DNA of 10,266 bases from the IMG/VR virus record IMGVR_UViG_3300028991_000027, positions 1 to 10,266 of that record. One strand, given 5' to 3'. This DNA is from a virus (lineage: Duplodnaviria > Heunggongvirae > Uroviricota > Caudoviricetes). The notes under the pieces were generated by a model. That model was given only the letters and a program-made list of their open reading frames with translations. It ran no database searches and was not told the origin of the DNA. Position 1 is the first letter of the stretch, and each line of letters begins with the position of its first letter. The translations under genes were made by a program, and so were the position numbers. Shown here one piece after another: positions 906-10,043 of the stretch.

Positions 906-928
906 AAAAAACCCGCCTGGCGGCGGGG
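906..928 (-). terminator. rho-independent terminator (tR'-like) closing a short transcript from the late promoter
   Basis: Minus strand reads CCCGCC-gcca-GGCGGG followed by TTTTTTAT (plus-strand stem arms 912-917 and 922-927, A-run 906-911). About 65 nt downstream of the putative late promoter. Confidence 0.6.
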
Positions 929-975
929 TGTAAAAAATCTTCTAACGTCAGGCATAAAACGCCCATCGTTAGGGG

Positions 976-1003
976 GATTTACCACAGATTCGGGAAAAAT
1001 CAA
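976..1003 (-). promoter_or_regulatory. putative late promoter PR' (with expected Q-utilisation region) just downstream of the Q-like gene
   Basis: Minus strand: -35 TTGATT (plus 998-1003), 16-nt spacer, extended -10 TGgTAAATC (plus 976-984). It begins 5 nt after the Q-like stop codon and is followed by the terminator at 906-928, as in lambda PR'-tR'. Confidence 0.4.
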
Positions 1004-1008
1004 CAAAG

Positions 1009-1830
1009 CTATCTGGTCACCTTTTTCAGTTGTTGTTCTGCCCATGCTTCTTCAATATCAAACTGCACCACCAGCGTATCGTAAAAACGTTTAACTGTTT
1101 TTTTCCATGTATCAAGAGATATGGCATCGGTTACATTACATATGGCATTAAATGCCTCCGTTGAAGGTAATCTTTCATAGCCACGCCCACCACAACGCTG
1201 ACAGTTTCTGAAAACCGGCACACCCTGTTTTTCCGACTCTTCACGATGAATGGCAACACCGCGCCCACGACAATCTTTACAGGCTGTGGAAACCTCCCCC
1301 TTTCCGCTACACTCCGGACAGGCAACTTTTACCACCTCCCTGACTTTTTTCCATTCCTCCCAGTAAGACGGATACACGCCTTTTGTGCACTTTGCCCATA
1401 CTGGCGGCTTACCATCCGGATACTGGATCTTGTTTGTAAAAATCTCGCTTTCAATAAATTTTTTTCCGTGACAGCAGGGGCACTGTTTTTTGCTCGCCGC
1501 GCTACGGGCATAATCTTCAAACGCATACGAAGCCATAATGCGCATCACTGCCGGTTTTATTTCTGCCGGGAGTTTTCTTAACGCCGCCACGCAATCACAC
1601 CGACTGAGTGCATATTCTGTCAGCAATTCTGTTGCCCGCTCTCTGTCATTCATACTAATGCCCATTTTCCCAAGGAACGCAGAAAACCCCATCTCAGCCC
1701 GATTCTGTGTCATGCCCTGCGCTGCCATCACATCAGTGATACTCAGCGCATCTTTTGACGTCGAGGCAGAGGCATCTGTCAGGCCGGGGGATTTTGGTGA
1801 ATAGTACTTCGGTAAATCTTCCAGTTTCAT
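1009..1830 (-). CDS. late-gene antiterminator Q-like protein (273 aa) with four DnaJ-type CxxCxGxG zinc-finger repeats
   Basis: Complete ORF. Lies between rusA (ATGA stop/start overlap at 1827-1830) and the PR'/tR'-like pair. Cys repeats CPCCHGKK, CPECSGKG, CKDCRGRG, CQRCGGRG at aa 117-217. The Q assignment is mainly positional. Confidence 0.55.
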   Translation of the reverse strand: MKLEDLPKYYSPKSPGLTDASASTSKDALSITDVMAAQGMTQNRAEMGFSAFLGKMGISMNDRERATELLTEYALSRCDCVAALRKLPAEIKPAVMRIMASYAFEDYARSAASKKQCPCCHGKKFIESEIFTNKIQYPDGKPPVWAKCTKGVYPSYWEEWKKVREVVKVACPECSGKGEVSTACKDCRGRGVAIHREESEKQGVPVFRNCQRCGGRGYERLPSTEAFNAICNVTDAISLDTWKKTVKRFYDTLVVQFDIEEAWAEQQLKKVTR

Positions 1831-2201
1831 TTTTGGGCCTGTCCTTCATGCGTTATTTGGTAAATCTTCACACCCAGTCGTCCACCAGATACTGGCCGAC
1901 CACGTACAATATTGATTTCATCAAACTGCTCATCGTCCATTAACAGCCCTGCATGCGTCAGCGCATCCAGCGGCGCTTTCAGGATATTGTCCAGGTCACG
2001 ACGGCGCTTATCCGGTGGCTCTGCAATAATCCTGATTACCAGCCTTCCGGACAGGCTTAATTTCAGCCGCTGCTGGCGAACAATAAGCGCCACAGCCCGG
2101 CGATAACGCTTTCCCTCCTCCGAGATAAAATATGTACTGCCACGACGACGCCAGTAGGTGTTCACCGTTGGCGGGTAAGGTAAAACCAAATCTATGGGCA
2201 T
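1827..2201 (-). CDS. rusA: RusA-family Holliday junction resolvase (124 aa)
   Basis: ORF track protein contains RRRDLDN and surrounding sequence recalled as typical of RusA. ATG at 2201 is preceded by GAGGTG; its stop overlaps the Q-like start (ATGA). Confidence 0.85.
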   Translation of the reverse strand: MPIDLVLPYPPTVNTYWRRRGSTYFISEEGKRYRRAVALIVRQQRLKLSLSGRLVIRIIAEPPDKRRRDLDNILKAPLDALTHAGLLMDDEQFDEINIVRGRPVSGGRLGVKIYQITHEGQAQK

Positions 2202-2213
2202 CAGTCACCTCTT

Positions 2214-3263
2214 TTACCCAAGCACGCCTGTTGCGAAGGCGTGATCAAGAAAATGAAAAATTAACTCAACCTGGGAGCCGTACTTTTTCTCAAACTCCAG
2301 CGGGTCAGCATGAAGTTCGTTGTGGTGCTCCCGGCACAACGGTAGTGTGAAAATATCGTGGGCCTTTGTTCCCATTCCGCCCTGCCCATGGCCAATCAGG
2401 TGATGCGGATCATCAGCTGGCTTTCCACAACATGCGCACGGCTGCGTCTTAACCCAGCGTGTGTACTTTTCATTAACCCAGCGACGACGTTTAGGCCGTT
2501 TCATGAAAGATTCCGGAGACTCCGGATCAACGGCGATGCTTACTACCGTCTTTTCCTGTGGCGTGGTTTGTGGCTGGTGGGCGTGAAGCGGTAGCGCTAT
2601 GTTTTTTGTGCGCTGCTTCAGGATGCCGGTGGCGGTCTGCTCTCCCGGTATGATGTCGCTCTCACGGTATACGGAGCGGATTTTTTCCACCGGTAATCCC
2701 AGCGAACGACGCAATACAGACCCCGGAAGCGCATCAGCCACCTGATTGCAGACCGCCCACCAGGATAATTCGGCCAGCGATAACTCCCTCTCCTGCGTGC
2801 CATTCATTGCGTGACGGATGACGTCAATCATCCAGGCAGCCAGATTCTGCTGAGCAAGTTGCTCCAGTGAATCAGATGTCTGCTCCCGCAACTGGTTGTC
2901 GCAGTGCCAGCACAACACCATCGCGCCGGTACCGTAACGGTGAATGACGGTTTCGCTGTGATGATAATCGCCATGTGGCCACTGGCAGGATTTCACTTGA
3001 CGTAATAACCAGTCAGACAGTGCACCAGCACCACCTGCAGCACGGATCACCCGCTCATCACTGAAAAATGGCAGTAATGATTTATCCTCCACCAGCGGCT
3101 GGCGAACAGTGGGAACCGCTCCGGATGGCAGCGCCCGCATGTTTTTCGGTTCCGGCTCCACCAGCACCCTGCCGCAATGAAAAACCGGCAGTGATTCGCG
3201 ACCGGGCTTAAGGACCACCAGCCCGAGCTCCGGTACCAGAACAGGTCGAAGTAATACCCGCAC
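2214..3263 (-). CDS. DUF968-family phage protein (YdfU-like, 349 aa) with C-terminal HNH-type motif
   Basis: GTG start at 3263 preceded by GGAGG at 5 nt. C-terminal CACCGKPADDPHHLIGHGQGG...LCREHHNELH resembles an HNH zinc-binding nuclease motif. Length matches the DUF968 proteins of E. coli cryptic prophages as recalled. Confidence 0.75.
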   Translation of the reverse strand: MRVLLRPVLVPELGLVVLKPGRESLPVFHCGRVLVEPEPKNMRALPSGAVPTVRQPLVEDKSLLPFFSDERVIRAAGGAGALSDWLLRQVKSCQWPHGDYHHSETVIHRYGTGAMVLCWHCDNQLREQTSDSLEQLAQQNLAAWMIDVIRHAMNGTQERELSLAELSWWAVCNQVADALPGSVLRRSLGLPVEKIRSVYRESDIIPGEQTATGILKQRTKNIALPLHAHQPQTTPQEKTVVSIAVDPESPESFMKRPKRRRWVNEKYTRWVKTQPCACCGKPADDPHHLIGHGQGGMGTKAHDIFTLPLCREHHNELHADPLEFEKKYGSQVELIFHFLDHAFATGVLG

Positions 3264-3264
3264 G

Positions 3265-3537
3265 TTACCTCCAGATGCGTTGCTGGAATGTGCGGGACGG
3301 ACGCGGAGGGCGTTCGGAATAAGGAAGCCTGACAGAGATTATCCAGTGACGATAATCGAGACTGAGGGCTTTCTTAACCTCGTATCCGCGCCTGCGGTAA
3401 CACTGAATCAGCCATTCGGCCTGTTCTTCAGTGCATGGGGGATGCAGGTACCAGTGGGTTTTAAATACGTACGAATGCCGCCCCCGCTTAATGGCCGGGA
3501 CGGCTTCAGAATTGTGGGATTTTATATGTTGCGCCAT
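3265..3537 (-). CDS. hypothetical nin-region protein (about 90 aa from ATG 3537; ORF track extends to a TTG at 3585)
   Basis: ORF 3265..3585. Its stop lies 1 nt before the DUF968 GTG start, suggesting coupling. The TTG at 3585 sits almost inside the upstream terminator T-tract, so the internal ATG at 3537 (MAQHIKSHNSEAV...) is preferred. No family recognised. Confidence 0.4.
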   Translation of the reverse strand: MAQHIKSHNSEAVPAIKRGRHSYVFKTHWYLHPPCTEEQAEWLIQCYRRRGYEVKKALSLDYRHWIISVRLPYSERPPRPSRTFQQRIWR

Positions 3538-3600
3538 CGCAGCAGGTGTCAGTTGTTCAGGCTGACGGCGCGAATTGTAAGGCAATACGCCGGAATGTAC

Positions 3601-3628
3601 AAACAGAAACCCCGTCAGTAAGACGGGG
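3601..3628 (-). terminator. rho-independent terminator downstream of the OB-fold gene
   Basis: Minus strand: CCCCGTC-ttact-GACGGGG followed by TTTCTGTTT (plus stem arms 3610-3616 and 3622-3628). Confidence 0.5.
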
Positions 3629-3645
3629 ATAACCTGAACCGATTA

Positions 3646-3990
3646 CTATAATAATTTCAGAGTTTTTACATCCAGTTCAACACTGTTCAGGTCTTTATCA
3701 AGTTCCCCCTCAATTATTACCTTGTCTTTCGGAGAAACATTCTGCCCGGCCCATACACTTTTATCGATATCCGTGACAATGGTTCCGCTACTGTCGCGAA
3801 ACTCATAACGATCATCACCCAATTTTTTAACGATGTGCCCTTCAAGGATAACCCATGCCTCGTCCTTCTGTTCTTTTGCCTGCACTACTGTTGTTGAACG
3901 CTCTGCTTCAGACCCCAGAAAACCTCCCTGTTGTGCAAAAACGCCAAAAGACACGCAGGAAAAAAGGGCTGCGATTAATACTTTTTTCAT
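3646..3990 (-). CDS. YgiW/YdeI-family (BOF) OB-fold periplasmic protein with signal peptide (114 aa)
   Basis: Start taken at ATG 3990 (MKKVLIAALFSCVSFGVFAQQGGF...), preceded by GAGGA; the ORF-track N-terminal extension is not supported. QGGF, DDRYEFRDSSGTIVTDID and GELDKDLNSVELDVK match the YgiW/YdeI pattern as recalled. Flanked by its own terminator. Confidence 0.8.
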   Translation of the reverse strand: MKKVLIAALFSCVSFGVFAQQGGFLGSEAERSTTVVQAKEQKDEAWVILEGHIVKKLGDDRYEFRDSSGTIVTDIDKSVWAGQNVSPKDKVIIEGELDKDLNSVELDVKTLKLL

Positions 3991-4078
3991 TATCGTCCTC
4001 TTCAAGAAATTAACATGAACACTTGCATTGCAGCATATAAAATGCGGGTGCGTTGAGGATGCCTGACACATCAGAGGT

Positions 4079-4100
4079 GGCGAGGGATTTCTCCCTCGCC
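4079..4100 (-). terminator. stable GC hairpin at the 3' end of the hok transcript
   Basis: GGCGAGGGA-tttc-TCCCTCGCC, 8 nt past the hok stop codon. No clean U-tract on the minus strand, so it may be a 3' stabilising or fold-back element rather than an intrinsic terminator. Confidence 0.35.
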
Positions 4101-4107
4101 TGGTCTC

Positions 4108-4263
4108 TTACTTCTCAGATTCGTAGTCTACGAAGACAGCGACCTCCGTCTGGCCGGTTCGGATTCGTACCTCGCAGAGGTCTTTCCTCGTTACCAGTGC
4201 CGTCACTATGACGGTTAAACAGATGACGATCAGGGCGATTAACATCGCCTTTTGCTGCTTCAT
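4108..4263 (-). CDS. hok: Hok/Gef-family type I toxin (51 aa membrane peptide)
   Basis: Translated by hand from the minus strand: MKQQKAMLIALIVICLTVIVTALVTRKDLCEVRIRTGQTEVAVFVDYESEK. It is shorter than the ORF-track cutoff. Hydrophobic N-terminus and the TRKDLCEV...GQTEVA core match the Hok family. Confidence 0.9.
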   Translation of the reverse strand: MKQQKAMLIALIVICLTVIVTALVTRKDLCEVRIRTGQTEVAVFVDYESEK

Positions 4264-4321
4264 AGTCTGCTTCTCCTTGACCTTTCGGTCCGTAAGAGGC
4301 TAACCTACGTTTGTGAAGCAT
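4115..4321 (-). CDS. mok: mok-like overlapping reading frame (68 aa) upstream of and overlapping hok
   Basis: ORF 4115..4321 begins with ATG 58 nt upstream of hok and overlaps it in another frame, as mok does in hok/sok loci. The protein itself is low-complexity; the call is positional. Confidence 0.4.
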   Translation of the reverse strand: MLHKRRLASYGPKGQGEADYEAAKGDVNRPDRHLFNRHSDGTGNEERPLRGTNPNRPDGGRCLRRLRI

Positions 4322-4380
4322 AGATTGGGCCTCAGATTAATGTTAAGCGTCTTGCAGGACGCGTAATGTTAACTGGGGCT
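4290..4380 (+). ncRNA. sok: possible sok-like antisense RNA region (position inferred, boundaries not defined)
   Basis: In hok/sok loci the antisense RNA overlaps the mok start on the opposite strand. Here I find only a weak plus-strand promoter candidate (TTGACC 4277-4282, poor -10) and a small hairpin GCGTC-ttgcag-GACGC at 4347-4362. It may be degenerate. Confidence 0.2.
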
Positions 4381-4439
4381 TTTCTCTGTCTGCCTTACGG
4401 CGGCATGCCCGAGGCAGACAGCCTCAGGCACCCGCAGCA

Positions 4440-4467
4440 ATTCTACTTTACTCTCGTTTTACTGCAA
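4440..4467 (-). promoter_or_regulatory. putative sigma70 promoter for hok/mok mRNA
   Basis: Minus strand: TTGCAG (plus 4462-4467), 16-nt spacer, TAGAAT (plus 4440-4445). This gives a leader of roughly 110 nt before the mok-like ATG. Confidence 0.45.
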
Positions 4468-4571
4468 ACCTTTTATCCCGGGCGCATATTACCCGATATG
4501 GGAACTCACACATCGAAATGAATTCGCTTCCATTGCCCCCTCAATCACATAACCAGACACATAAAATGTAC

Positions 4572-4601
4572 TTGCCATCTGAAGAGACAATAATCTAAAC
4601 T
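4572..4601 (+). promoter_or_regulatory. putative promoter for the plus-strand DUF1640-like gene
   Basis: TTGCCA (4572-4577), 18-nt spacer, TAAACT (4596-4601), followed by SD AAGGA (4623-4627) 9 nt before the ATG at 4637. Confidence 0.3.
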
Positions 4602-4636
4602 CAGAAGATCCCTCAATAGCATAAGGAATTGATATT

Positions 4637-4924
4637 ATGGGTCACGTCTATTTTGACACATTAAAATTTGCCGAAGCACTGGAAAAAGCTGGCATGCCAG
4701 CTGAACAGGCGCGCGCCATTTCCTCCGCAATAAAAGATGCCCATGAGGCAATTGAAGTTGCAACTAAAAATGACCTTCACTACGCAAGCTCAGAACTTAA
4801 GCGCGATATTCTGTCAATTAATGAGAAAATTGACCACCTCATATTTCAAGTAACTTTTCGGTTAGGGGTAATAATTTCTATATGTATAGTAGTTGTATTT
4901 GCCATAATTAAAATGAATATGTAA
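4637..4924 (+). CDS. small coiled-coil protein with C-terminal transmembrane helix (DUF1640-like, 95 aa)
   Basis: Complete ORF with a good SD. Protein MGHVYFDTLKFAEALEKAGMPAEQARAISSAIKDAHEA... ends in the hydrophobic LGVIISICIVVVFAIIKM. Opposite strand to all neighbours, with its own terminator. Family name is from memory. Confidence 0.65.
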   Translation: MGHVYFDTLKFAEALEKAGMPAEQARAISSAIKDAHEAIEVATKNDLHYASSELKRDILSINEKIDHLIFQVTFRLGVIISICIVVVFAIIKMNM

Positions 4925-4937
4925 CAACCAGCCATAT

Positions 4938-4976
4938 AACGGGCTGATATTTATTATATCAGCCCGTTGTCTTTTT
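4938..4976 (+). terminator. rho-independent terminator after the DUF1640-like gene
   Basis: AACGGGCTGATAT-ttatt-ATATCAGCCCGTT followed by GTCTTTTT. The minus-strand copy lacks a U-tract. Confidence 0.7.
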
Positions 4977-5000
4977 AAATAAGACAAGGCGTAACAGTTG

Positions 5001-5456
5001 TCAAAGAAATATTAATTGCTTCATTCTGCATGACATTACCGCCCTTTCTGTCGCCCTCATGATATATTTAAGGTGTAGACACGCCTCCGCCATTCTGATA
5101 ATCGGGTCTTCTGAAGTCATCTTTTCTGGCGAATCGCAGTCAGCACCACATTCAGTAATGCGTTCATAATCAAAACGAGCGGTGATTTTATGTGCACCAA
5201 TCATTTGCGTAAGCGCATCTGTCAACTCTGCAATGCGCTTATCTTTGGCTTCCAACTCGCCCGGCAGCACCAGTGCTACCTTTAGATTAAAGGTAGCAAT
5301 GAAGTCCGCGTTATTTTTCAGAATATGGTGCACAATAAGTACACCATTGAGTTTTACCTTGTAACCTCGTGCGCCACAATGCGGTCTATATGAGCTCCAG
5401 TCTCCCCCACGTTGCTTTTTCTGAAGCGTCACGCATCTTCCGGTAATTAATTTCAA
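5001..5456 (-). CDS. hypothetical protein (up to 151 aa); last gene of the minus-strand operon before the moron island
   Basis: ORF 5001..5456. The start is a TTG overlapping the DUF4406 stop (TTGA), with AGGAGA 10 nt upstream; the first in-frame ATG is far downstream, so the true start is uncertain. Six Cys and an R-x6-H near the C-terminus (RMAEACLH). No family recognised. Confidence 0.5.
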   Translation of the reverse strand: MKLITGRCVTLQKKQRGGDWSSYRPHCGARGYKVKLNGVLIVHHILKNNADFIATFNLKVALVLPGELEAKDKRIAELTDALTQMIGAHKITARFDYERITECGADCDSPEKMTSEDPIIRMAEACLHLKYIMRATERAVMSCRMKQLIFL

Positions 5457-5752
5457 TCACTGGTTGTCTCCTGGAAAATAACTGCATGCCCCAATTTCTC
5501 CGCCAGTGCCAGCTCTGCCTTAGCGCCCGCTGACCGCTGCCAGCCTTTCAGCATGTAAATCGCATCCACACAACGAATCATTGCCATGCAAATATCCATG
5601 TAATGTGGCTGAGTCAGCCCGTCCGGAAGTACTGCCGGGTTTAAAACGGTATGCCCTTCCCGTTTCAGCGCTTCTTCCGCCTTGTGAAACGCATCACGGT
5701 TGAAATTTTCATATCCCGTCATCGGACCAGCGATATAAATTCTCACCCTCAC
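5453..5752 (-). CDS. DUF4406-family protein (nucleoside 2-deoxyribosyltransferase-like fold, 99 aa)
   Basis: GTG start preceded by AGGAGG at 8 nt. N-terminal RIYIAGPMTGYENFN...VLNP matches the remembered DUF4406 signature. Confidence 0.7.
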   Translation of the reverse strand: MRVRIYIAGPMTGYENFNRDAFHKAEEALKREGHTVLNPAVLPDGLTQPHYMDICMAMIRCVDAIYMLKGWQRSAGAKAELALAEKLGHAVIFQETTSD

Positions 5753-6905: not shown

Positions 6906-7652
6906 TTACTTCACAACCCTCTGATTGCTGACATTTGGACGCCAGCTATCCCAGTTAAACGTCACCCATCGACCACCGTTCATGGTCATGCGGTCCATAA
7001 TCCTCTCACCGAGAAGCGTACTCATTGCGGCATGATTCAGGTTTGTTAACATCCCGACACTGCACAGTGATGCTGTCCGGCGATCAATTATCTGGTGCAA
7101 TACCACCTGCTCGTTTTTCGTCTCACGCTGAACGCCTATTTCATCCAGGACCAGCAAATCAACCCCGCAAAGCTCCTGTAAAAATTTTTCCCCGGACTGG
7201 CCGTTGTCGTAGCTGTCATGCAACACACTCATGACGTCAGACACGGTGACGATAATCACGCTGCTCCCCTTCGCCATCAGCCGGTTGCCCATCGCCGCTG
7301 CAAGGTGATTTTTCCCGGTGCCGGTTTTACCGCTGAACACAAAATTCGTGCACCCGGTCATCAGTTCGTCAGCGATGGATTTTGCCTGGCTCAGCGCGTG
7401 TTTTTGCCCGTCGTTCTGCACCTGATAATTCGCAAACGAGCATTTGCTGTGCAGAGGCTGGATGCCCGAACGATTCAGGATTTTTTCCACCCGCAACTGG
7501 CGATTCTGGCGGTTAATCTCCTCGCTGCGTTTTCGTCCTTCAGCAAGCTGCCATTCCCGCCACTCCTCCACCGTCCGGTACGGTGGAACCGCCCCCTGTG
7601 GTGCAAGTCTGCGAATACGTTCAAGAACCCCGGCTGCCGCAATGTTTTTCAT
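6906..7652 (-). CDS. DnaC-family helicase loader (phage replication protein P analogue, 248 aa)
   Basis: Walker A FVFSGKTGTGKNHLAAA, Walker B DLLVLDEIGVQ, and a C-terminus (MLTNLNHAAMSTLLGERIMDRM...FNWDSWRP) close to E. coli DnaC as recalled. ATG at 7652. Confidence 0.9.
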   Translation of the reverse strand: MKNIAAAGVLERIRRLAPQGAVPPYRTVEEWREWQLAEGRKRSEEINRQNRQLRVEKILNRSGIQPLHSKCSFANYQVQNDGQKHALSQAKSIADELMTGCTNFVFSGKTGTGKNHLAAAMGNRLMAKGSSVIIVTVSDVMSVLHDSYDNGQSGEKFLQELCGVDLLVLDEIGVQRETKNEQVVLHQIIDRRTASLCSVGMLTNLNHAAMSTLLGERIMDRMTMNGGRWVTFNWDSWRPNVSNQRVVK

Positions 7653-7658
7653 GCCACG

Positions 7659-8627
7659 TCACCCCCTGAATCCAGGCGGTATTTCAGTGTCCGGTTCAGA
7701 AATGTGATTCACGCAACGCTGCGCGGGCGAACGCCCCAGGCGGATAACCAGTTCATCCCATTTTTCCCGGAGTTTTGCCGGACTCATGATGTTTTTTACC
7801 CAGAACGAATCCCGCTGGACACGCCCAAACATTTCACAAATCTGCCGGTGACTACGTCCATCCAGCATACGCATCATGCGCACATCATTCGCCCAGGTCG
7901 TCCAGTTAGGTTCTCGGGGGCGTGACACCTCACCATCATCACTGGCGGCCTGTTCATACAACGCCACAACCCGTCCCCAAATCCACTGCGCACAGGCGAC
8001 ATCCTCACGGGTACCCCACTGTCGCTTCGGTACATTCCAGGTATGCGCATCCGGGTGTTTCTCCAGAAATCGCTCAACTGGTGATGATTGTTTTTCGTCC
8101 GGCAGTGAAACGTCCGGACAAGAAGATCTTTTATCTGACGGATCAGGTTTTAATACTGACGGATCGGGGTCAATCATCGCCCCCCTAATCGGCAGTTTTT
8201 TATCAACCGTTGATCCATCAAAATTTGACGGGTCAACCGTTGAGGGGTCAATATTTGACGGGTCAACTGTTAACGGGTCATTTTTTGCCGGGCTAATTTT
8301 TCTTTTCGGTTTATATGACTCACGCGCCGCCGCCGCAGCTGCTTCGAGTTTTTCCACATTAAGCCGATAGATATTGCTTACATTACGCCCACCGACCTTA
8401 CGCTCTTCCTTCGTCAGCCAGCCCTCTTTCGCCAGTTCTGCAATAGCCGATTTCACGGTGGATTCACTTCTTGCACCGATCTGACGCCGGATAGTTTCAA
8501 TGGCAGGCCATGACACGCCCTCGTCATTGCTGTAGTCTGCTAGACGGGCCATCACTGCCACCCGGGATAAGATCATGCCGGTGAAGGCGCATCCTTCCCA
8601 GACAAGACCATGAAGCTTGCTGCTCAT
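7659..8627 (-). CDS. replication initiator, lambda O-like (N-terminal winged-helix domain, repeat-encoded linker, C-terminal domain; 322 aa from ATG 8627)
   Basis: ORF 7659..8642; the ATG at 8627 preceded by GGGGG is preferred over the GTG at 8642. It lies immediately upstream of the DnaC-like gene, and the iteron repeats fall inside its linker (DPLTVDPSNIDPSTVDPSNFDGSTVD), as in lambda O. Confidence 0.75.
   Translation of the reverse strand: MSSKLHGLVWEGCAFTGMILSRVAVMARLADYSNDEGVSWPAIETIRRQIGARSESTVKSAIAELAKEGWLTKEERKVGGRNVSNIYRLNVEKLEAAAAAARESYKPKRKISPAKNDPLTVDPSNIDPSTVDPSNFDGSTVDKKLPIRGAMIDPDPSVLKPDPSDKRSSCPDVSLPDEKQSSPVERFLEKHPDAHTWNVPKRQWGTREDVACAQWIWGRVVALYEQAASDDGEVSRPREPNWTTWANDVRMMRMLDGRSHRQICEMFGRVQRDSFWVKNIMSPAKLREKWDELVIRLGRSPAQRCVNHISEPDTEIPPGFRG
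8137..8320. repeat. iteron-like direct repeats plus AT-rich tract: putative origin of replication inside the O-like gene
   Basis: A 20-bp repeat TTTGACGGGTCAAC(C/T)GTT(G/A)A at 8224-8243 and 8254-8273. The GGGTCA core recurs at about 15-bp spacing (around 8166, 8230, 8244, 8260, 8275), with GACGGATCA variants at 8137 and 8158. An AT-rich stretch follows at 8281-8320. Confidence 0.6.
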
Positions 8628-8649
8628 AAAACCCCCGAACACCGTGCTT

Positions 8650-9075
8650 TTAGTGCATCACCACAGCATTCCCTGCCGGGCCGCCGCGATTCATCTGGTC
8701 ATACAAAACAACCGCTGACGCAACAAAATCGTCGACATCCTTCACCAGCCGATCCCGCCGTTCGACGATCTCACGGTAATACTCAGAACTGTGGCTGCGC
8801 ATACGGGCCACCAGCAAAGGCGGCATCGCCTTTTCGATCGCTGGTAACAGAGCCTGAATTTTTTCAACAGCATCAGGGGTGTCTTTATCCAACCAACGGA
8901 AAATTTTCTGGGTATTACGGGCCAGGGCTTCCGGATGACTGTCGTCGTACAGTTCCGGGAACGTCATCCCCAGCTCGAAATACGCTTTGGTAATTTTCGC
9001 AGCCGGTACTTTTTCGCCGTCCGGATGCGCCCAGGCATTCATCGCCATGCGGATGTGCTCATGCTTGATTTTCAT
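8650..9075 (-). CDS. YdaT-family protein (141 aa), second gene of the cro-side operon
   Basis: Complete ORF beginning MKIKHEHI...; ATGA overlap with the cro-like stop. Family assignment is from remembered similarity to Rac YdaT. Confidence 0.65.
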   Translation of the reverse strand: MKIKHEHIRMAMNAWAHPDGEKVPAAKITKAYFELGMTFPELYDDSHPEALARNTQKIFRWLDKDTPDAVEKIQALLPAIEKAMPPLLVARMRSHSSEYYREIVERRDRLVKDVDDFVASAVVLYDQMNRGGPAGNAVVMH

Positions 9076-9299
9076 GAATCACTCTTCCTTTCGCTCTGAG
9101 TGGTATCCTTCTTTTTGTAAAGCTCTGGGTTCAAAGATAATTTTCCCTTGGAGTATGCAGCAGCTTCCGCAGCTCTCCCTTTCGGAACTATTTCACCGGG
9201 GCGCTTACGCCACATGTAAATAGCTTCGCGGGTTATCCCATAAAAATCAGCGACCCTCTGAACAGAGCCAAAAAACTGAACAAGTTCATCAACTCGCAT
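9072..9299 (-). CDS. Cro-like HTH regulator, YdaS family (75 aa)
   Basis: ATG at 9299 preceded by AGGAGG. HTH segment VADFYGITREAIYMWRKR. Divergent from the CI-like gene across the operator region. Confidence 0.75.
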   Translation of the reverse strand: MRVDELVQFFGSVQRVADFYGITREAIYMWRKRPGEIVPKGRAAEAAAYSKGKLSLNPELYKKKDTTQSERKSDS

Positions 9300-9395: not shown

Positions 9396-10043
9396 ATGAT
9401 GGAAAGCCTTGGCATCAGGCTTAAGAAACTCAGAAAAGATAAGGGACTCACCCAAGTAGAACTGGGTAAGCTTTCAGGCGTGACCGGGGTTACTATAGGG
9501 TACTGGGAGAAAGATCTAAACGAACCCGGCAGCAAAGCTCTAAGTAAGTTAGCCCAAGCATTAGGAACTACTGAGTCCTATCTCCTGTATGGAGTATCGT
9601 CTCCTGAACTATCTTTTGTGCAGAGCAATCCAGGCACCAAGATCCCCTACTTTTCGTGGGGTGACGCGATTTCTTTCCTAATCTTAGAAGGAGAGAAAAC
9701 AATGGGAAATGTCGATAGGATCACCACATTCTTTGATGTAGTGGAAGGTGATTTTGCCGTTTCAATGCCTGATGACACTATGCATAACCCCTCAGGGTCG
9801 CCAAGTATCCCAGTTGGTGCCACTGTGATCCTAAGACCAGGAGAAAGTTATAAAAATGGCAGTATCGTCGCTGTAATAGTTCCAGATCCTCTTACAAATG
9901 AACCGTCTATGACTATAAAAAAATTAGTTATTGATGGAAAACTTGTGTATTTAAGCCCTCTCAATCCGCGCTATCAATCATCCTTGCTTACGCCAGAGTG
10001 TAAAATTGTTGCCGTAGCAAAAGGTGTACAGTTCAACCTATAA
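9396..10043 (+). CDS. CI-type prophage repressor (N-terminal HTH, C-terminal S24 LexA-like peptidase domain, 215 aa)
   Basis: HTH GLTQVELGKLSGVTGVTIGYWEKD. C-terminal domain contains candidate Ser and Lys motifs (GDFAVSM, IKKLVIDGKLVYLSPLNPRY). Divergent from the cro-like gene and flanked by operator-like sites on both sides. Confidence 0.85.
   Translation: MMESLGIRLKKLRKDKGLTQVELGKLSGVTGVTIGYWEKDLNEPGSKALSKLAQALGTTESYLLYGVSSPELSFVQSNPGTKIPYFSWGDAISFLILEGEKTMGNVDRITTFFDVVEGDFAVSMPDDTMHNPSGSPSIPVGATVILRPGESYKNGSIVAVIVPDPLTNEPSMTIKKLVIDGKLVYLSPLNPRYQSSLLTPECKIVAVAKGVQFNL

What the first reader, a model, noticed from the sequence alone, without database searches (positions are those of the whole stretch)
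3601..4976. Moron island of three autonomous transcription units inside the early operon
Between the accessory block and the nin-like genes sit a convergent plus-strand gene with its own promoter and terminator (4572-4976), a hok/mok locus with its own promoter and 3' hairpin (4079-4467), and an OB-fold periplasmic gene with its own terminator (3601-3990). Units with private promoters and terminators are the hallmark of morons, which are typically expressed from the lysogen. The cargo here is entirely membrane- or envelope-directed (a membrane toxin, a periplasmic OB-fold protein, a membrane-anchored coiled-coil protein). The three units may be independent insertions or one functional module.
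Basis: partly seen in the sequence, partly recalled or inferred. Interest (0 to 1): 0.6.

Follow-up and report, generated by a model that had tools for sequence, protein, structure and literature searches.

The report
Two accessory cassettes in prophage early operon
This stretch of an E. coli lambda-like prophage carries a well-known toxin/antisense-RNA locus (hok/sok) with a periplasmic stress-protein gene riding behind it, plus a rare, separately acquired small membrane-protein gene; it is ordinary phage cargo, and the three genes are not one module.

Summary
Window 3601-4976 contains a YgiW-type OB-fold gene (3646-3990, minus strand), a complete hok/mok/sok type I toxin-antitoxin locus (about 4040-4477, minus strand), and a DUF1640-like tail-anchored gene (4637-4924, plus strand). 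All three lie inside the minus-strand early operon of a Qin/Rac-like lambdoid prophage.

The "three autonomous units, perhaps one module" reading is only partly right.

- **Two cassettes, not three units.** Homology breakpoints define cassette A (3599-4477: hok promoter, hok/mok/sok, OB-fold gene, one terminator) and cassette B (4561-5016: promoter-like site, DUF1640 gene, strong terminator).
- **The OB-fold gene looks dependent on hok.** No promoter-like site and no terminator separates it from hok. In relatives without it, a terminator follows hok directly.
- **The genes are not inherited together.** Among 5426 complete E. coli genomes, the hok locus matches 4724, the OB-fold unit 525 (essentially always beside hok), and the DUF1640 unit one (11 more distantly).
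- **Both cassettes recur in other contexts.** Cassette A sits at the right end of phage 933W and in a chromosomal mini-island. Cassette B sits in an unrelated phage context.

Hok here is identical to HokW of Sp5/933W, which has been characterised experimentally. The finding is a new member of a known kind and of modest interest.

The parts
3610..3628 (-). Intrinsic terminator-like hairpin (CCCCGTCTTACTGACGGGG followed by TTTCTGTTTG). It is the only terminator on this strand downstream of hok, and it marks the outer boundary of cassette A.
   Evidence: Found by the scan; folding z = -3.6. Homology with 933W starts at 3599 and with the chromosomal island at 3608. The equivalent hairpin is found in 933W and L026.
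3646..3990 (-). YgiW/YdeI-type bacterial OB-fold (BOF) protein, 114 aa, with a signal-peptide-like N-terminus, so predicted periplasmic.
   Evidence: Pfam BOF E = 5.7e-31; NCBIfam NF033674 128.5 bits against cutoff 35; PDB 1NNX YgiW E = 1e-25; PHROG 1230. About 81% identical to 933W L0136.
3991..4039 (-). Spacer between hok and the OB-fold gene. It has a Shine-Dalgarno sequence (AGAGGA) but no promoter-like or terminator-like site on the minus strand.
   Evidence: The only weak candidate has its -10 over the start codon. This is the most divergent part of the window/933W alignment.
4040..4107 (-). hok mRNA 3' region: stable stem-loop (4070-4091), fold-back element UCAGGCAUCC (4057-4066), and a second complementary element GCACCCGC (4044-4051).
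   Evidence: In both the MFE and centroid folds of 4433-4050, the first 10 nt pair with 4057-4066; z = -7.0. The region is identical between window and 933W up to 4040. Homology with hok-only relatives ends at 4040.
4108..4263 (-). hok toxin ORF, 51 aa, identical to HokW of 933W/Sp5.
   Evidence: Pfam HOK_GEF E = 4.3e-23; PHROG 251; 52 of 52 positions identical to HokW, stop codon included.
4115..4321 (-). mok ORF, 68 codons, overlapping hok. It is out of frame with hok here because of one extra base at 4280.
4277..4392 (+). sok antisense RNA gene: -35 TTGACC (4277-4282), -10 TAACCT (4301-4306), RNA from about 4313 to the hairpin plus U-tract ending about 4385-4392.
   Evidence: Rfam sok 103.9 bits. 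Position transferred from the 933W sokW annotation. The -10 element is the one mutated in PMC8621323, as read from its primers. Hairpin fold z = -4.6. Coordinates.
4433..4477 (-). hok promoter (TTTGCA-17-TAGAAT, 4468-4440) with the inferred mRNA start near 4433. This is the inner boundary of cassette A.
   Evidence: The Rfam model starts at 4433. 933W homology ends at 4477.
4478..4560 (.). Spacer shared with O121-type prophages. It contains the remnant of a small upstream ORF that is cut by cassette B.
   Evidence: Homology with L003/L012 ends at 4559.
4561..5016 (+). Cassette B, a DUF1640-like moron: promoter-like site 4572-4601, CDS 4637-4924 (95 aa, C-terminal transmembrane segment), terminator 4936-4970.
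   Evidence: Exactly this block is shared at 80% identity with L015 in a different context, with both promoter hexamers conserved. Pfam CCDC90-like 26 bits, below the cutoff of 33.5. The source database names the protein DUF1640. Terminator z = -7.2. GC 38-39%.

Best explanation
The region holds two independently acquired accessory cassettes in the nin-like part of a Qin/Rac-type lambdoid prophage early operon.

Cassette A (3599-4477) is a hokW-type type I toxin-antitoxin locus.
- A stable, folded hok mRNA is made from its own promoter.
- Translation of Hok, through the overlapping mok frame, is blocked by the short-lived antisense Sok RNA.
- When Sok is lost, for example after prophage induction, Hok inserts into the inner membrane.

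A YgiW-type periplasmic OB-fold gene sits between the hok 3' fold-back element and the only terminator. It is therefore most likely expressed by read-through from the hok promoter, and from the early operon after induction, not as a unit of its own.

Cassette B (4561-5016) is a classical moron on the opposite strand. It has a promoter-like site, a 95-aa tail-anchored DUF1640-like protein of unknown function, and a strong terminator.

Basis of each step:
- Shown here: gene identities, cassette boundaries, nested frequencies, and the absence of promoter and terminator signals between hok and the OB-fold gene.
- From the literature: HokW toxicity, SokW antitoxin activity, and expression in the lysogen.
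- Inferred: co-transcription of hok and the OB-fold gene, and lysogen expression of the OB-fold and DUF1640 genes.
For: Identities.

Cassette A boundaries:
- 933W shares exactly 3599-4477 (88% identity), at the right end of the phage, after L0134 and near attR.
- A chromosomal island between cytochrome c peroxidase and mrp-metG shares 3608-4565.

Linkage of the OB-fold gene to hok: the OB-fold unit matches 525 genomes and the hok/OB-fold junction 550 genomes, against 4724 for the hok locus.

Empty site: L011 and L012 have 41 bp carrying the terminator AACCCGCTTCGGCGGGTTTTGTTTTTT directly after hok, in place of window 3581-4039.

No promoter-like or terminator-like site lies on the coding strand between hok and the OB-fold gene in the window, 933W or L026.

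hok mRNA 5'-3' fold-back is predicted, z = -7.

Cassette B:
- L015 shares 4561-5016 in a different context, with both promoter hexamers conserved across a diverged spacer.
- The left junction coincides with the end of O121-type homology at 4559.
- Only 1 of 5426 genomes carries it closely.
- Every context shown for the exact protein has the same neighbouring genes on the DUF4406/replication side; the three that extend to the other side show hok or mok and the OB-fold gene there, one with an IS between.

Lysogen expression and toxin/antitoxin function of hokW-sokW: PMC8621323.
Against: - Co-transcription of hok and the OB-fold gene is inferred only from the absence of consensus signals. An activator-dependent or non-consensus promoter in 3991-4055 cannot be excluded.
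- In the 830-nt read-through RNA, the MFE fold uses a local 5' hairpin instead of the 5'-3' fold-back. It is therefore unclear how hok mRNA control would work on a long transcript.
- No transcript data were found for the OB-fold or DUF1640 genes.
- hok itself has backbone-like GC (51%), and no relative with an empty hok site was examined. Its moron status at this position is therefore not shown.
Confidence: 0.72

Rival explanations
1. This is the reader's version: three autonomous morons, each with a private promoter and terminator, that together form one envelope-directed functional module expressed from the lysogen.
For: All three products are membrane- or periplasm-directed. hok and the DUF1640 gene have promoter-like sites and terminators. 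The three lie next to each other in every context of the exact DUF1640 protein that extends far enough to show all three (3 of 5).
Against: The OB-fold gene has no promoter-like site, and no terminator separates it from hok. Frequencies differ by orders of magnitude: 4724, 525 and 1 genomes. Cassette A recurs without B, and B recurs without A.
Confidence: 0.08
2. The OB-fold gene is an independent gene with its own regulated promoter, for example stress- or two-component-dependent like chromosomal ygiW and ydeI. It merely happens to be inserted upstream of the hok terminator.
For: The spacer 3991-4039 arrived together with the OB-fold gene, since it is absent from hok-only relatives, and could carry a non-consensus promoter. 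Chromosomal YgiW/YdeI genes are regulator-dependent (own knowledge). On an 830-nt RNA the predicted hok 5'-3' fold-back is lost in the MFE, which argues that a long read-through transcript would be awkward for hok control.
Against: No sigma-70-like site lies on the coding strand in any of three alleles. The spacer is the least conserved part of the cassette. The OB-fold gene is essentially never found away from hok. Its outer boundary is always the terminator.
Confidence: 0.25
3. These are not lysogen-expressed morons. The genes are ordinary delayed-early (nin-region) genes expressed mainly by read-through from the early promoter after induction. hok serves lysis timing, and its terminator acts as a nin-type terminator that delays Q expression.
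For: hok and the OB-fold gene are co-oriented with the early operon, between the replication genes and Q. A hok locus matches 4724 of 5426 genomes, and it holds this same position in every related prophage context examined. HokW protein appears only after induction and aids phage release (PMC8621323).
Against: hokW mRNA and sokW RNA are already present before induction. The same cassette works at a completely different position in 933W/Sp5. The DUF1640 gene is on the opposite strand, so early-operon read-through cannot express it.
Confidence: 0.2

Closest known systems
hokW-mokW-sokW of Stx2 phage 933W / Sakai prophage Sp5, with the adjacent L0136 YgiW-like gene
   Same: Hok protein is identical. 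[quoted passage not shown]
   Different: The position differs: here it lies in the early (nin-like) operon, co-oriented with early transcription, while in 933W it lies after the tail genes near attR. One extra base at 4280 puts mok out of frame with hok and alters the sok -35 element. The OB-fold protein is only about 81% identical.
hok/sok (parB) of plasmid R1 and the chromosomal hok loci of E. coli
   Same: Same architecture: Hok ORF, overlapping mok, antisense Sok, and a 5'-3' fold-back in the mRNA. As in plasmid R1 (from memory of its sequence), mok is out of frame with hok.
   Different: HokW is 44% identical to R1 Hok (PMC8621323). Here no terminator directly follows the fold-back element; a 345-nt ORF is interposed before the terminator.
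hokD (relF) in the Qin prophage of E. coli K-12
   Same: Same position in the prophage backbone, upstream of the small ORF, DUF968 (ydfU) and Q. RefSeq names many of the homologous copies hokD.
   Different: K-12 hokD is preceded by relBE and lacks mok and sok (own knowledge, not tested here). The window locus is complete.
YgiW / YdeI (OmdA) periplasmic stress-tolerance OB-fold proteins
   Same: Same fold family and signal peptide.
   Different: It scores below the cutoffs of the TIGR00156 subfamily (105.3 against 108.15) and the YdeI equivalog (65.8 against 179). It belongs to a narrow E. coli prophage clade with at least 73% identity among members. No function has been tested for this clade.
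Phage morons (as defined for HK97/HK022-type lambdoid phages)
   Same: Cassette B has every sequence hallmark: presence/absence polymorphism with sharp junctions, its own promoter-like site and terminator, opposite strand, and low GC.
   Different: Expression from the repressed prophage was not shown. The cargo is a DUF1640-like protein with no known function.

Membership tests
hok/sok type I toxin-antitoxin family | Small hydrophobic Hok/Gef toxin ORF of about 50 aa | tested here: met
   Pfam HOK_GEF 81.1 bits against cutoff 22; identical to HokW.
hok/sok type I toxin-antitoxin family | Antisense Sok RNA gene overlapping the mok translation start, with its own promoter and terminator | tested here: met
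   Rfam RF01794 103.9 bits against gathering score 59. The -35 and -10 elements are at 4277-4306, matching the element mutated in PMC8621323. Hairpin plus U-tract, z = -4.6.
hok/sok type I toxin-antitoxin family | Overlapping mok reading frame upstream of and through hok | tested here: met
   68-codon ORF at 4115-4321. It is out of frame with hok, unlike the in-frame mokW annotated in 933W.
hok/sok type I toxin-antitoxin family | 5'-3' fold-back pairing (tac/fbi) that keeps the full-length mRNA inert | tested here: met
   MFE and centroid folds pair nt 1-10 with 4057-4066; z = -7.0. In the 830-nt read-through RNA the MFE does not keep this pairing.
hok/sok type I toxin-antitoxin family | Toxicity of Hok and neutralisation by Sok | not testable with these tools
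   Shown experimentally for the identical HokW protein and its 88%-identical locus (PMC8621323).
Phage moron | Present between genes that are adjacent in related phages (presence/absence with sharp junctions) | tested here: met
   OB-fold unit: 41 bp in L011/L012 against 459 bp here. DUF1640 cassette: junctions at 4559/4561 and about 5016. hok alone: no empty site was examined.
Phage moron | Own promoter and own terminator | tested here: inconclusive
   Met by consensus scans for hok and the DUF1640 gene. Not met for the OB-fold gene, which has a terminator but no promoter-like site. These are consensus matches only.
Phage moron | Nucleotide composition different from neighbouring genes | tested here: met
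   OB-fold CDS 42.5% GC and DUF1640 CDS 38.2%, against DUF968 55% and the replication genes 53%. The hok locus at 51% is not distinct.
Phage moron | Transcribed from the repressed prophage | not testable with these tools
   The literature covers hokW and sokW only. Nothing was found for the OB-fold or DUF1640 genes.
YgiW/YdeI (BOF) family | BOF OB-fold domain with an N-terminal signal peptide | tested here: met
   Pfam BOF 107.1 bits against cutoff 25.8; NF033674 128.5 against 35; 1NNX E = 1e-25; hydrophobic N-terminus.
YgiW/YdeI (BOF) family | Membership of the YgiW/YdeI subfamily or the YdeI equivalog | tested here: not met
   TIGR00156 105.3 against 108.15; PRK10053 65.8 against 179.
DUF1640 / CCDC90-like | Match to PF07798 above the gathering score | tested here: not met
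   26.0 bits against 33.5, covering only residues 6-43. Source databases still name it DUF1640, and its homologues carry PF07798.

The most novel reading that the evidence does not exclude
The hok locus and the OB-fold gene form a true bicistronic unit. The periplasmic OB-fold protein would be translated from a 3' extension of the long-lived hok mRNA, so its supply would follow the hok mRNA pool. It would end when 3' trimming removes the extension and the fold-back element, which is the step that activates Hok. A membrane toxin and an envelope-stress protein would then be functionally coupled: protection in the lysogen, killing or lysis help after induction. On this reading the hok 3' end also acts as a docking site for passenger genes, as suggested by the ImmA/HTH pair that occupies the same slot in L013, flanked by duplicated terminators.
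Probability: 0.2. Interest if true: 0.55.

Novelty: new member of a known kind. Interest (0 to 1): 0.3.

Why it matters
- The analysis shows that a widespread prophage toxin-antitoxin locus (matches in 4724 of 5426 complete E. coli genomes) acts as a fixed anchor around which small cargo genes are swapped.
- It shows that the YgiW-like gene of Shiga-toxin phages is physically tied to hok and may depend on its promoter.
- This bears on how hokW-type loci are regulated.
- It also bears on how to read genome-wide association hits. A ygiW copy (ygiW_2) and a mok-like gene (group_5720) were jointly associated with haemolytic uraemic syndrome in PMC11950266. If those two genes are this cassette, which I did not check, the association would most simply reflect carriage on Stx phages.
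- The DUF1640 cassette is a clean, small test case for finding a function for a common family of unknown function on mobile elements.
- None of this changes current concepts.

Tried and rejected
- PADLOC defence models: no hit for any of the five proteins.
- Rfam permissive search of 3200-5300: nothing beyond sok.
- IMG/VR scans with single proteins gave only 2 loci for the OB-fold protein and none for DUF1640. They were too insensitive to be useful.
- Homology search with the OB-fold protein found only E. coli relatives at 73% identity or more. Linkage to hok outside E. coli could therefore not be tested.
- Literature searches for lysogen transcription of the YgiW-like gene (locus tags, and hok + lysogen + RNA-seq) found nothing usable. 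The DUF1640 literature concerns mitochondrial MCUR1, not phage proteins.
- Folding the 830-nt read-through RNA to test whether the hok fold-back survives was inconclusive: the MFE uses a local 5' hairpin.
- I considered that the strong DUF1640 terminator might also stop the early operon on the minus strand. I rejected this because no T-run follows the stem on that strand (sequence).
- I considered the 51-aa plus-strand ORF at 4366-4521, which is called as a gene on some contigs. I judged it likely spurious because it lies over the hok promoter and leader.
Full report
**Context**

The window is the immunity, replication, nin and Q part of a lambdoid prophage of the Qin/Rac type, with the early operon on the minus strand. 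The gene order, from the immunity region towards Q, is:
- cI-like repressor 9396-10043 (+)
- Cro-like 9072-9299
- YdaT 8650-9075
- O-like 7659-8642
- DnaC-type ATPase 6906-7652
- DUF1627, then DUF977
- DUF4406 5453-5752
- ead/Ea22-like 5001-5456
- the region in question
- a small ORF 3265-3585
- DUF968 2214-3263
- RusA 1827-2201
- Q-type antiterminator 1009-1830

These assignments come and from the annotation of the closest complete genome, E. coli UTAK-6. The finding therefore does lie inside the early operon, in the position of lambda's nin region.

**Observation check**

All three genes are real.

- **OB-fold gene.** Its N-terminus looks like a signal peptide. A terminator-like hairpin follows at 3628-3610.
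- **hok/mok/sok locus.** The locus is complete. It has the Hok ORF at 4108-4263 (HOK_GEF E = 4.3e-23) and an overlapping 68-codon mok ORF at 4115-4321. The Rfam sok model matches at 103.9 bits against a gathering score of 59 over 4261-4433, and a hok promoter-like site lies at 4468-4440. The sok promoter has -35 at 4277-4282 and -10 at 4301-4306; the -10 is the element mutated in the experimental study of hokW-sokW. The Sok hairpin with U-tract folds with z = -4.6. Folding 4433-4050 as RNA pairs the first ten nucleotides with 4057-4066, the fold-back typical of hok mRNAs, in both the MFE and centroid structures, z = -7.0. The locus therefore extends to about 4040, not 4079.
- **Plus-strand gene.** The ORF at 4637-4924 encodes 95 aa with a helical N-terminal part and a C-terminal hydrophobic segment. 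It has a promoter-like site at 4572-4601 and a 15-bp-stem terminator at 4936-4970 (-23.2 kcal/mol, z = -7.2). It matches Pfam CCDC90-like (DUF1640) only below threshold, at 26 bits against 33.5, although source databases name it DUF1640.

Raw counts of promoter-like and terminator-like sites are not above shuffled sequence. The individual sites are credible because of homology and conservation, not enrichment.

**What the comparisons show**

Cassette boundaries are sharp.

- **Cassette A.** Phage 933W shares exactly 3599-4477 with the window at 88% identity. That span runs from just outside the terminator behind the OB-fold gene to just outside the hok -35 element. In 933W the block (L0136, hokW, mokW, sokW) lies after the large tail gene L0134 near attR, a completely different position. 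A third context is a chromosomal mini-island between a cytochrome c peroxidase/cytochrome b562 pair and mrp-metG, which shares 3608-4565 at 85.6%.
- **The OB-fold unit as an indel.** Related prophages with the same backbone carry hok without the OB-fold gene (L011, L012). In them, window 3581-4039 is replaced by 41 bp containing a classical terminator (AACCCGCTTCGGCGGGTTTTGTTTTTT) directly after the hok 3' element.
- **No signals between hok and the OB-fold gene.** In the window, in 933W and in the chromosomal island, no terminator-like site and no promoter-like site lie on the coding strand between the two genes. The only terminator follows the OB-fold gene. The OB-fold gene therefore sits between the hok fold-back element and a single terminator.
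- **Another passenger in the same slot.** In L013 an ImmA/IrrE plus HTH gene pair occupies that slot, flanked by two copies of the hok terminator.
- **Cassette B.** A contig with a different gene context (a TPR protein and PerC) shares exactly 4561-5016 at 80% identity. Both promoter hexamers are conserved across a diverged 18-nt spacer, and a different but still stable hairpin follows the gene. Its left junction coincides with the point where O121-type prophage homology stops, at 4559.

**Are the three gained and lost together?**

They are not. Among 5426 complete E. coli genomes:
- the hok locus (4053-4477) matches in 4724 genomes, at 10,914 places;
- the OB-fold unit (3599-4052) matches in 525 genomes, at 562 places;
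- a probe across the hok/OB-fold junction is covered at 80% or more in 550 genomes, so the OB-fold gene is essentially always next to hok;
- the DUF1640 unit matches closely in one genome and distantly in eleven.

Every context shown for the exact DUF1640 protein has the same neighbouring genes on the DUF4406/replication side. The three that extend to the other side carry the hok locus (called as hok in two, as the mok frame in one) and the OB-fold gene there, once with an IS element between. More distant DUF1640 homologues sit next to integrases and other toxin-antitoxin pairs, or in the early region of APSE phages, without hok. The pattern is nested: hok is close to a fixture of this backbone position, the OB-fold gene is an optional passenger of hok, and the DUF1640 gene is a rare, separate addition.

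**Composition**

The OB-fold CDS has 42.5% GC and the DUF1640 CDS 38.2%. DUF968 has 55% and the replication genes about 53%. The hok locus, at 51%, is not distinct from the backbone.

**How it most likely works**

Hok here is identical in sequence to HokW of 933W/Sp5. For HokW, experiments (PMC8621323) show that:
- HokW is toxic and sokW RNA counteracts it;
- after RecA-dependent induction sokW RNA disappears and HokW appears in the inner membrane about an hour before the endolysin;
- deleting the locus halves phage release.

I transfer that mechanism to this locus; the toxin is identical and the regulatory elements are conserved. One extra base at 4280 shifts mok out of frame with hok and changes the sok -35 from TTGCCT with a 17-nt spacer to TTGACC with an 18-nt spacer. 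This could alter the balance between the two RNAs, but I did not test it.

The OB-fold protein is predicted to be periplasmic. By family knowledge (YgiW/YdeI, own knowledge) it would contribute to envelope or oxidative stress tolerance. I infer that it is expressed by read-through from the hok promoter, and from the early operon after induction.

The DUF1640-like protein is a tail-anchored inner-membrane protein of unknown function with its own promoter-like site and terminator. After induction, early-operon transcription would run antisense through it.

A further inference concerns Sok. Here, unlike in 933W, hok is co-oriented with early transcription. Early transcripts would therefore collide head-on with the sok promoter, which could contribute to the loss of Sok at induction. 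This was not tested.

**Weak points**

- Co-transcription rests on the absence of consensus signals.
- The MFE of the 830-nt read-through RNA does not keep the 5'-3' fold-back.
- I found no transcript data for the OB-fold or DUF1640 genes.
- I did not examine any relative with an empty hok site, so hok's own status as an insertion at this position is open.

**Comparison with what is known, and novelty**

The hok/sok family, hokW-sokW, the adjacent YgiW-like gene in 933W (annotated in the original record) and the moron concept are all established. Four points are added here:
- the precise two-cassette anatomy;
- the finding that the OB-fold gene shares hok's terminator and is essentially never found away from hok;
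- the nested frequencies;
- a cleanly delimited DUF1640 moron.

This makes the finding a new member of a known kind. No defence-system model matches any of the proteins.

**Verdict**

Interest is 0.3.

Noticed in passing
window 4280 (inside 4277-4282): One extra base relative to the 933W and O121 alleles. It shifts mok (4115-4321) out of frame with hok; in 933W the annotated mokW is an in-frame N-terminal extension of HokW. It also changes the sok -35 element from TTGCCT with a 17-nt spacer to TTGACC with an 18-nt spacer.
   Followed up: partly
L007, L009, L010, at the position of window 4272-4277: Close relatives carry an insertion that breaks homology at window 4272-4277, in the hok leader; in L007, the only one that extends far enough, it contains an IS element (rve-type transposase). 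It separates the hok ORF from its promoter and the mok start, much like the IS-disrupted chromosomal hok loci of K-12.
   Followed up: partly
window 3283-3473: A patch inside the small ORF 3265-3585 does not align with the nearest relatives (UTAK-6, O121 and others) but aligns at 82-85% with more distant hok-only prophages. This points to a local mosaic exchange.
   Followed up: no
L013 4035-4135 and 5400-5480: An ImmA/IrrE metallopeptidase plus HTH gene pair occupies the slot that the OB-fold gene holds here. It is flanked by two copies of the hok terminator hairpin, which suggests that the terminator serves as a recombination junction.
   Followed up: partly
L026-L028 (window-equivalent 3608-4565): The small upstream ORF, hok and the OB-fold gene occur as a three-gene chromosomal mini-island between a cytochrome c peroxidase/cytochrome b562 pair and mrp-metG, with no prophage genes around it.
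   Followed up: partly
window 928-1873: The antiterminator (Q) gene region does not align with the otherwise closest genome, UTAK-6, but matches O121-type prophages. The Q allele has therefore been swapped between otherwise near-identical prophages.
   Followed up: no
L014 (APSE-1) 4001-4573: The DUF1640 gene P47 of the aphid-symbiont phage APSE-1 is also a lone plus-strand gene inside a minus-strand early/replication operon. The opposite-strand placement of this family recurs in unrelated temperate phages.
   Followed up: no
L006, window-equivalent 5149-5264: One relative lacks about 116 bp inside the ead/Ea22-like gene next to the DUF1640 cassette.
   Followed up: no
literature, PMC11950266: In an Irish STEC case-control GWAS, a ygiW copy (ygiW_2) and a mok-like gene (group_5720) were jointly associated with haemolytic uraemic syndrome. 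The two genes may be this hok/OB-fold cassette carried on Stx phages; their sequences were not compared with the window.
   Followed up: no
L020 (plasmid pHX138.261ft_1): A fragment with hok and the OB-fold gene (100% identical over window 3850-4250), together with other prophage remnants, lies on a 90-kb plasmid between IS1 and IS5 copies.
   Followed up: no
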